Translations under genes and position numbers: made by a program
The notes under the pieces: model-generated
The model's database searches: none
What the model was told of the DNA's origin: nothing
What the model saw: the letters and a program-made list of their open reading frames with translations, nothing else
Shown here: one piece after another, positions 63,924-64,000 of the stretch
Numbering within the stretch: the first letter of the stretch is position 1
How the letters are laid out: every line of letters starts with the position of its first letter
Assembly (NCBI RefSeq): GCF_003334385.1
Contig: NZ_QOWN01000010.1
Source of the DNA: Escherichia coli
Lineage (GTDB): Bacteria; Pseudomonadota; Gammaproteobacteria; Enterobacterales; Enterobacteriaceae
DNA: 64,000 bases
Reading direction: 5' to 3' (one strand)

Positions 63924-64000
63924 TGATCCTACCCACGTAATATGGACACAGGCCTAAGCGAGGTTCTTGTTTTCAAATTGTTCCGGACTGAGGCCGCCAC
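63924..64000. mobile_element. terminal inverted repeat and first bases of an IS3-family element (truncated by window edge)
   Basis: TGATCCTACCCACGTAATATGGACACAGGCCTAAGCGAGGTTC matches my recollection of the IS3 end, 10 bp after dgcT stop. Confidence 0.6.

What the first reader, a model, noticed from the sequence alone, without database searches (positions are those of the whole stretch)
63924..64000. IS3 end 10 bp downstream of the diguanylate cyclase gene dgcT
The sequence from 63924 matches the IS3 terminal inverted repeat as I recall it. The element abuts dgcT and the divergent pga biofilm operon, where IS activity could affect local expression or mark a rearrangement hot spot. Only about 77 bp are inside the window.
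Basis: partly seen in the sequence, partly recalled or inferred. Interest (0 to 1): 0.3.

Follow-up and report, generated by a model that had tools for sequence, protein, structure and literature searches.

The report
Known IS3 copy beside dgcT
The last 77 bases of the window are the right end of the well-known E. coli insertion sequence IS3 (the copy called IS3D in K-12), an old inherited copy at the scar of a 31.7-kb island deletion; it is ordinary and already described.

Summary
dgcT ends with TAA at 63911-63913. Ten bases later, at 63924, IS3 begins with TGATCCTACCC. All 77 bases match annotated IS3 copies at 12,772 places in 3,596 of 5,426 complete E. coli genomes.

This is the right end (IRR). 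The transposase lies on the minus strand, and 63954-64000 encodes the last 14 codons and stop of OrfB/InsF. In MG1655 the same copy is annotated IS3D (1094245-1095502). In relatives identical to the window it is 1,258 bp long with 39-bp imperfect inverted repeats, orfA/orfB overlapping in the -1 frame, and an rve DDE domain.

Compared with O157:H7, IS3 replaces 31,740 bp (O-island 47, including the phosphodiesterase gene pdeT/vmpA) and truncates ymdE.

Among 5,426 genomes:
- 2,297 share the exact dgcT-IS3 junction.
- The far junction comes in two forms 185 bp apart.
- 389-390 keep the intact island.
- None holds the predicted insertion intermediate.

So this is an old, vertically inherited IS3 at an IS-mediated deletion scar. 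The insertion and the ymdE truncation are in the literature. Interest is low.

The parts
62555..63913 (+). dgcT (ycdT) diguanylate cyclase gene, 452 codons plus stop TAA at 63911-63913. This is context for the finding.
   Evidence: ORF. ATG at 62555 read. Equivalent to the dgcT b1025 annotation in NC_000913.3.
63914..63923 (.). 10-bp spacer AGCGGCATTT between the dgcT stop and IS3. It is shared with O157:H7, whose sequence continues into the island at this point. The last 3 bp (TTT) would be the target site of the original insertion.
63924..63962 (.). IS3 right terminal inverted repeat (IRR), 39 bp. It pairs imperfectly (72%) with the left repeat at the far end of the element, which lies outside the window.
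   Evidence: arms L008 13924-13962 and 15143-15181. alignment of the two ends.
63924..64000 (-). First 77 bp of the 1,258-bp IS3 copy (IS3D of K-12), cut by the window edge. The element is oriented with its transposase on the minus strand.
63954..64000 (-). 3' end of orfB / insF (the DDE transposase part): the last 14 codons ...GGLSPEQFENKNLA plus the stop.
   Evidence: translation. insF4 annotated at the equivalent position. OrfB scores 339 bits against NCBIfam NF033516 IS3 family transposase (cut-off 160) and carries Pfam rve PF00665.

Best explanation
The 77 bases are the IRR end of a complete, apparently intact IS3 element, the copy named IS3D in E. coli K-12. It lies 10 bp after the dgcT stop, with its transposase genes convergent with dgcT. 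It is an old, vertically inherited insertion rather than a recent one.

Proposed history:
1. In an ancestor that carried the roughly 32-kb dgcT-to-ycdU island (O-island 47 of O157:H7), IS3 inserted just after dgcT.
2. An IS3-mediated deletion then removed 31.55 kb from the left (IRL) end of the element up to a point inside ymdE. This is the form seen in O104:H4.
3. In the lineage that includes K-12 and this window, a further 185 bp next to the same end was lost.

The deletions erased the target-site duplication, removed the phosphodiesterase gene pdeT/vmpA together with fimbrial, two-partner-secretion and fatty-acid/polyketide-type genes, and left ymdE as a 3' fragment.

Shown here: identity of the element, its orientation, the absent duplication, both breakpoints, the population counts, and the absence of the deleted DNA elsewhere in the genome.

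Inferred: the order of events and the molecular route. I favour a local second IS3 insertion in the same orientation followed by homologous recombination between the two copies, as was demonstrated for IS150 next to the rbs operon. The element's only demonstrated present-day role is as a transposon copy and a deletion scar.
For: Identity and orientation:
- 77/77 match to annotated IS3.
- The full element in relatives identical to the window is 1,258 bp with 39-bp inverted repeats.
- orfA is 99 aa. orfB is in the -1 frame, with a CCAAAAGG (A AAA G) motif in the overlap.
- IS3-family and rve domain hits.
- Annotated IS3D/insE4/insF4 in MG1655.

Deletion:
- Flanks are TTT and GTG, so there is no duplication.
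- K-12 sequence aligns to O157:H7 up to position 20925 and resumes at 52666 of the joined O157 region. 31,740 bp are missing, and the resumption point is inside the ACP S-malonyltransferase gene ymdE.
- A 581-bp piece just inside the deleted region exists in only 390 genomes, once each. It was therefore lost, not moved.

Age and inheritance:
- The exact dgcT-IS3 junction is in 2,297 of 5,426 genomes.
- The IS3 copies of K-12 and O104:H4 differ at 2 of 1,258 positions, against 9 of 2,800 and 14 of 1,518 in the flanks.

Fixed end and variable end:
- O104:H4 has the same left junction, but its far junction lies 185 bp earlier in ymdE.
- That form is in 716 genomes of the 2,195 that carry either form.

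Literature:
- IS3D directly next to ycdT and followed by pseudogene ymdE (PMC5635171).
- ymdE 'foreshortened by an IS3 element' in phylogroup A (PMC4951805).
- vmpA/pdeT lies immediately downstream of ycdT in EDL933 and is absent from K-12 and O104:H4 (PMC4287979), and vmpA is in OI-47 (PMC4076661).
- An IS150 element next to rbs drives frequent deletions by recombination between two copies (PMC4173774).
Against: - The part of the element beyond 64000 was read in close relatives, not in the window's own genome. Those relatives are 100% identical over the last 25 kb.
- No genome among 5,426 holds the predicted intermediate of IS3 plus TTT duplication plus intact island. The first step is therefore inferred and not observed.
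- The data cannot separate two-copy recombination from a one-step intramolecular transposition.
- The data cannot show whether the K-12 form arose from the O104 form or independently from the intermediate.
- About 100 genomes have the dgcT-IS3 junction but neither far junction (2,297 against 2,195). I did not examine them.
Confidence: 0.9

Rival explanations
1. A simple, possibly recent IS3 insertion into the dgcT 3' flank, with a 3-bp target duplication and no other change. This is the scenario implied by the reader's proposed check.
For: IS3 is active and has several copies per genome: a median of 3 places per genome, up to 17. The left flank is undisturbed up to the insertion point.
Against: The flanking triplets differ, TTT against GTG. 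31,740 bp present in O157:H7 are missing, and ymdE is truncated exactly at the IS3 left end. The same junction is in 2,297 genomes with IS3 divergence similar to the flanks.
Confidence: 0.02
2. The island was gained in the O157:H7 lineage rather than lost in the K-12 lineage, and IS3 merely inserted at an empty site.
For: The region next to the serX tRNA is a variable island site. B2-type strains go from dgcT straight to serX. Only 389-390 genomes carry the full island.
Against: K-12-type genomes retain the right-hand end of the island: the 3' part of ymdE plus ycdU, 98.6% identical to O157:H7 and starting exactly at the IS3 end. A gene fragment abutting an IS without a target duplication indicates loss, not an empty site. 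Two nested far endpoints 185 bp apart fit progressive deletion.
Confidence: 0.03
3. Same history, different molecular route. The deletions were made in one step by intramolecular attack of the IS3 left end (or of a transposition intermediate) on nearby DNA. No second IS3 copy or homologous recombination was involved.
For: One IS end is constant and the other endpoint is variable. This is the classic signature of IS-adjacent deletions. No genome with two IS3 copies bracketing the island was seen, although I made no search specific to that arrangement.
Against: From general knowledge, not tested here: IS3-family elements move by copy-out/paste-in through a circular intermediate, which does not by itself delete adjacent DNA. 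For the IS3-family element IS150 next to rbs, the same fixed-end, variable-endpoint pattern is attributed to recombination between two copies (PMC4173774). Both routes leave the same final sequence.
Confidence: 0.3

Closest known systems
IS3D (insE4/insF4, b1027/b1026) of E. coli K-12 MG1655, at 1094245-1095502
   Same: Same position (10 bp after dgcT), same orientation and same sequence. The window's last 1,001 bp are 100% identical to K-12. The full element in a strain identical to the window has 0 mismatches to the K-12 copy and the same flanks.
   Different: The window is not MG1655 itself. It has 14 SNPs over about 63 kb, lacks IS1D upstream of gfcA, and has an intact efeU. Only 77 bp of the element lie inside the window.
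O-island 47 (OI-47) of E. coli O157:H7, carrying pdeT/vmpA
   Same: It occupies the same chromosomal site between dgcT and ycdU. Its two edges coincide with the two sides of the IS3.
   Different: The window's lineage has lost all but the last roughly 1.3 kb of it (the ymdE fragment plus ycdU). IS3 stands in its place.
IS150-mediated rbs operon deletions in the E. coli long-term evolution experiment
   Same: An IS3-family element sits next to a dispensable gene cluster and produces deletions with one end fixed at the IS and a variable far endpoint (PMC4173774).
   Different: Those are laboratory events observed as they arose, with the mechanism tested. Here there are two ancient, fixed natural deletions, and the mechanism is inferred.

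Membership tests
IS3 (IS3 family, IS3 group) | Terminal imperfect inverted repeats beginning 5'-TG and ending CA-3' | tested here: met
   39-bp arms, 72% complementary, TGATCC... and ...AAGATCA (alignment). The right arm is window 63924-63962. The left arm was read in relatives L001, L008 and L009.
IS3 (IS3 family, IS3 group) | Two consecutive, overlapping ORFs (orfA, then orfB in the -1 frame) with a slippery A AAA G motif for programmed frameshifting | tested here: met
   orfA is 99 aa in frame 2. The long orfB reading frame is frame 1 (that is, -1). CCAAAAGG lies in the overlap. RefSeq annotates 'programmed frameshift'. Frameshifting itself was not assayed. Only the last 14 codons of orfB lie in the window.
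IS3 (IS3 family, IS3 group) | DDE (rve / retroviral-integrase-like) catalytic domain in OrfB, and family-level profile match | tested here: met
   NCBIfam NF033516 transpos_IS3: 339 bits against a cut-off of 160. Pfam rve PF00665, E = 1.3e-27.
IS3 (IS3 family, IS3 group) | Element length of about 1.26 kb and near-identity to the IS3 copies annotated in the MG1655 reference | tested here: met
   1,258 bp. 77/77 identity to thousands of annotated copies.
IS3 (IS3 family, IS3 group) | 3-bp direct target-site duplication flanking the element | tested here: not met
   The flanks are TTT and GTG in K-12-type genomes and TTT and GGC in O104:H4-type genomes. The deletion next to the left end accounts for this. 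The duplication is a mark of the insertion event and not a feature of the element, so membership is unaffected.
IS-mediated adjacent deletion scar | One IS end abuts intact host sequence and the other abuts a truncated gene; the intervening DNA is present in relatives and absent from the whole genome | tested here: met
   Breakpoints at O157 positions 20925 and 52666, with 31,740 bp missing. The ymdE pseudogene is 'missing N-terminus'. The island-specific 581 bp occur in only 390 genomes, once each.

The most novel reading that the evidence does not exclude
This IS3 copy may have been kept intact at one site across phylogroups A and B1 for a reason rather than by drift. It has 0-2 changes in 1,258 bp, its ORFs are intact, and the junction is in 42% of complete genomes. 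It could act as a long-lived source copy that seeds the other IS3 copies. Alternatively, by replacing the dgcT-pdeT intergenic region, it could supply the 3' end of the dgcT transcript, or convergent transcription that tunes dgcT now that its neighbouring phosphodiesterase gene is gone.
Probability: 0.05. Interest if true: 0.35.

Novelty: already known. Interest (0 to 1): 0.08.

Why it matters
This matters little. It confirms a textbook annotation: IS3D next to dgcT/ycdT in K-12-like E. coli. The useful context is that this IS3 is the scar where K-12 and its relatives lost O-island 47, including the c-di-GMP phosphodiesterase PdeT/VmpA that sits next to DgcT in O157:H7. That loss is one reason biofilm and c-di-GMP results from K-12 do not transfer directly to EHEC. 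The junction could also serve as a lineage marker: it is present in 2,297 of 5,426 complete genomes, and its two far-junction forms differ by 185 bp.

Tried and rejected
- **Predicted insertion intermediate.** I searched for IS3 left end + TTT + O157 island sequence. No genome covered the junction.
- **Two other synthetic intermediates.** I built queries for IS3 inserted in intact ymdE at either breakpoint but did not search them, to save capped searches.
- **Promoter and terminator scans.** I scanned the junction, the whole IS3 plus flanks and the O157 dgcT-pdeT spacer. There was no terminator after dgcT in either arrangement, and no promoter at the dgcT-IS3 junction itself; the few promoter-like sites elsewhere, inside IS3 and in the O157 spacer, are no more than shuffles give. 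I therefore make no claim about expression.
- **Mistyped pattern.** My first in-window IS3-end pattern had a spacing error and found nothing. The corrected pattern found only the site at 63924.
- **Window is not MG1655.** I first assumed the window was MG1655. Direct comparison failed, and alignment showed a close non-K-12 relative.
- **Inversion or translocation instead of deletion.** Rejected, because the missing DNA is absent from all genomes that carry the junction.
- **Literature search for 'IS3D', 'insF4', 'insE4'.** Nothing further of relevance.

Full report
**Observation**

The window's last 1.6 kb holds the dgcT reading frame. The ATG is at 62555 and the stop TAA is at 63911-63913 (matching the b1025 annotation). 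After a 10-bp spacer (AGCGGCATTT) the sequence from 63924 reads TGATCCTACCCACGTAATATGGACAC...

These 77 bases match 12,772 places in 3,596 of 5,426 complete E. coli genomes, and the features listed under the matches are annotated as IS3 family transposase. The IS3-end pattern occurs once in the window, against 0.01 expected by chance.

**What the element is**

The window's last 1,001 bp are 100% identical to K-12 strains. MG1655 annotates this position as IS3D (1094245-1095502, minus strand) with insF4 and insE4.

I read the rest of the element in K-12 (L001, L008) and in strain CFSAN051542 (L009). The latter is 100% identical to the window over its last 25 kb. The findings were:
- The element is 1,258 bp long.
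- It has 39-bp imperfect terminal inverted repeats.
- orfA is 99 codons, followed by a long orfB frame in the -1 register, with CCAAAAGG in the overlap.
- OrfB scores 339 bits against NCBIfam 'IS3 family transposase' (cut-off 160) and has Pfam rve domains.

The end inside the window is the right end (IRR). The transposase genes therefore run on the minus strand, converging on dgcT. Window 63954-64000 encodes the last 14 codons (...GGLSPEQFENKNLA) and the stop of OrfB.

**No target duplication: a deletion scar**

The element is flanked by TTT on the dgcT side and GTG on the far side. The far side is a pseudogene fragment of an ACP S-malonyltransferase (ymdE, 'missing N-terminus'), followed by ycdU.

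In O157:H7, dgcT is followed by:
- an EAL-domain gene (pdeT/vmpA by position; PMC4287979);
- regulators;
- a chaperone-usher fimbrial operon;
- a filamentous-haemagglutinin and ShlB-type secretion pair;
- a fatty-acid/polyketide-like cluster;
- full-length ymdE and ycdU.

Alignment shows K-12-type sequence leaving the O157 sequence at position 20925 and rejoining at 52666 of the joined O157 region. IS3 therefore replaces 31,740 bp.

A 581-bp probe from just inside the missing segment is found in only 390 genomes, once each. The DNA is truly deleted in junction-bearing genomes, not inverted or moved.

**Age and history**

Among the 5,426 complete genomes:

| Feature | Genomes |
|---|---|
| Exact dgcT-IS3 junction | 2,297 |
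| Undisturbed dgcT-island junction | 389 |
| Either far junction (K-12 or O104:H4 form) | 2,195 |
| O104:H4-form far junction | 716 |
| Predicted intermediate (IS3 + TTT + intact island) | 0 |

O104:H4 has the identical dgcT-IS3 junction, but its far junction lies 185 bp earlier in ymdE. By subtraction, about 1,479 genomes carry the K-12 form. This assumes that every O104-form genome was counted as a joined two-piece match, as hits H86-H89 show.

K-12, HS and ATCC 8739 carry the K-12 form and O104:H4 carries the other. From general knowledge these are phylogroup A and phylogroup B1 strains respectively.

The IS3 copies of K-12 and O104:H4 differ at 2 of 1,258 positions. The flanks differ at 9 of 2,800 and 14 of 1,518 positions. 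This fits one ancient insertion inherited with its flanks.

One end is fixed and the far endpoints are nested. That pattern points to IS3-mediated deletion from the left (IRL) end: first about 31.55 kb, then a further 185 bp in the K-12 lineage, or two independent deletions from a lost intermediate.

**Mechanism**

The end-state sequences cannot distinguish two routes. One is a second local IS3 insertion followed by homologous recombination. The other is a one-step intramolecular event. I favour the first, by analogy with the IS3-family element IS150 next to the rbs operon. There, frequent deletions with a fixed IS end are attributed to recombination between two copies (PMC4173774).

**Expression effects**

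Nothing here supports or excludes an effect on dgcT or pga. Consensus scans found no terminator after dgcT, either in the window or in the O157 dgcT-pdeT spacer. Promoter-like sites within IS3 were no more frequent than in shuffles, and none lies at the dgcT junction.

**Comparison with what is known**

- PMC5635171 states that IS3D lies directly next to ycdT in MG1655, followed by pseudogene ymdE.
- PMC4951805 notes that ymdE is foreshortened by an IS3 element throughout phylogroup A.
- PMC4287979 and PMC4076661 place vmpA/pdeT immediately downstream of ycdT in EDL933, within OI-47, and absent from K-12.

The feature is therefore already known. The small additions here are the exact breakpoints, the absent duplication, the two far-junction classes 185 bp apart, and the counts across 5,426 genomes.

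**Verdict**

The feature is ordinary and already described, so interest is low.

Noticed in passing
window 20224-20232: The window lacks the IS1D element that K-12 carries upstream of gfcA. This is the empty site: the 9 bases 20224-20232 are the target that is duplicated in MG1655. The source is therefore a close non-K-12 relative (14 SNPs over about 63 kb) and not MG1655.
   Followed up: partly
window 51025-51864 (extra G at 51139): efeU is an intact 279-codon ORF here. MG1655 lacks one G at the equivalent of 51139 and annotates efeU (b4490) as a pseudogene.
   Followed up: partly
window about 63877 (inside dgcT, 36 bp before the stop); L003 4877-5115: In B2-type strains, homology with the window ends inside the last 12 codons of dgcT. 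dgcT there has a different, 3-codon-longer C-terminus and is followed about 100 bp later by the serX tRNA. The left edge of the variable island therefore lies within the dgcT 3' end.
   Followed up: partly
L001 7883-8381; L009 4882-5018; L006 5782-5918: Between ycdU and the serX tRNA, RefSeq annotates 137-nt 'RtT sRNA' repeats. There are three tandem copies in one MG1655 re-assembly and one each in CFSAN051542 and O104:H4. A 75-bp core repeats four times in L001. The copy number varies between strains. This region is outside the window.
   Followed up: no
L001 804-1784; hit H16 (NZ_CP151050.1): Other IS events hit the same neighbourhood in other strains: IS5 inside pgaA in an MG1655 isolate, IS1 inside dgcT in a dog isolate, and (from the literature) IS1 between ycdT and pgaA in strain 55989. 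The pga-dgcT region is a recurrent IS target.
   Followed up: no
counts: About 100 genomes have the dgcT-IS3 junction but neither of the two far junctions. They may carry further deletions or IS3-IS3 rearrangements.
   Followed up: no
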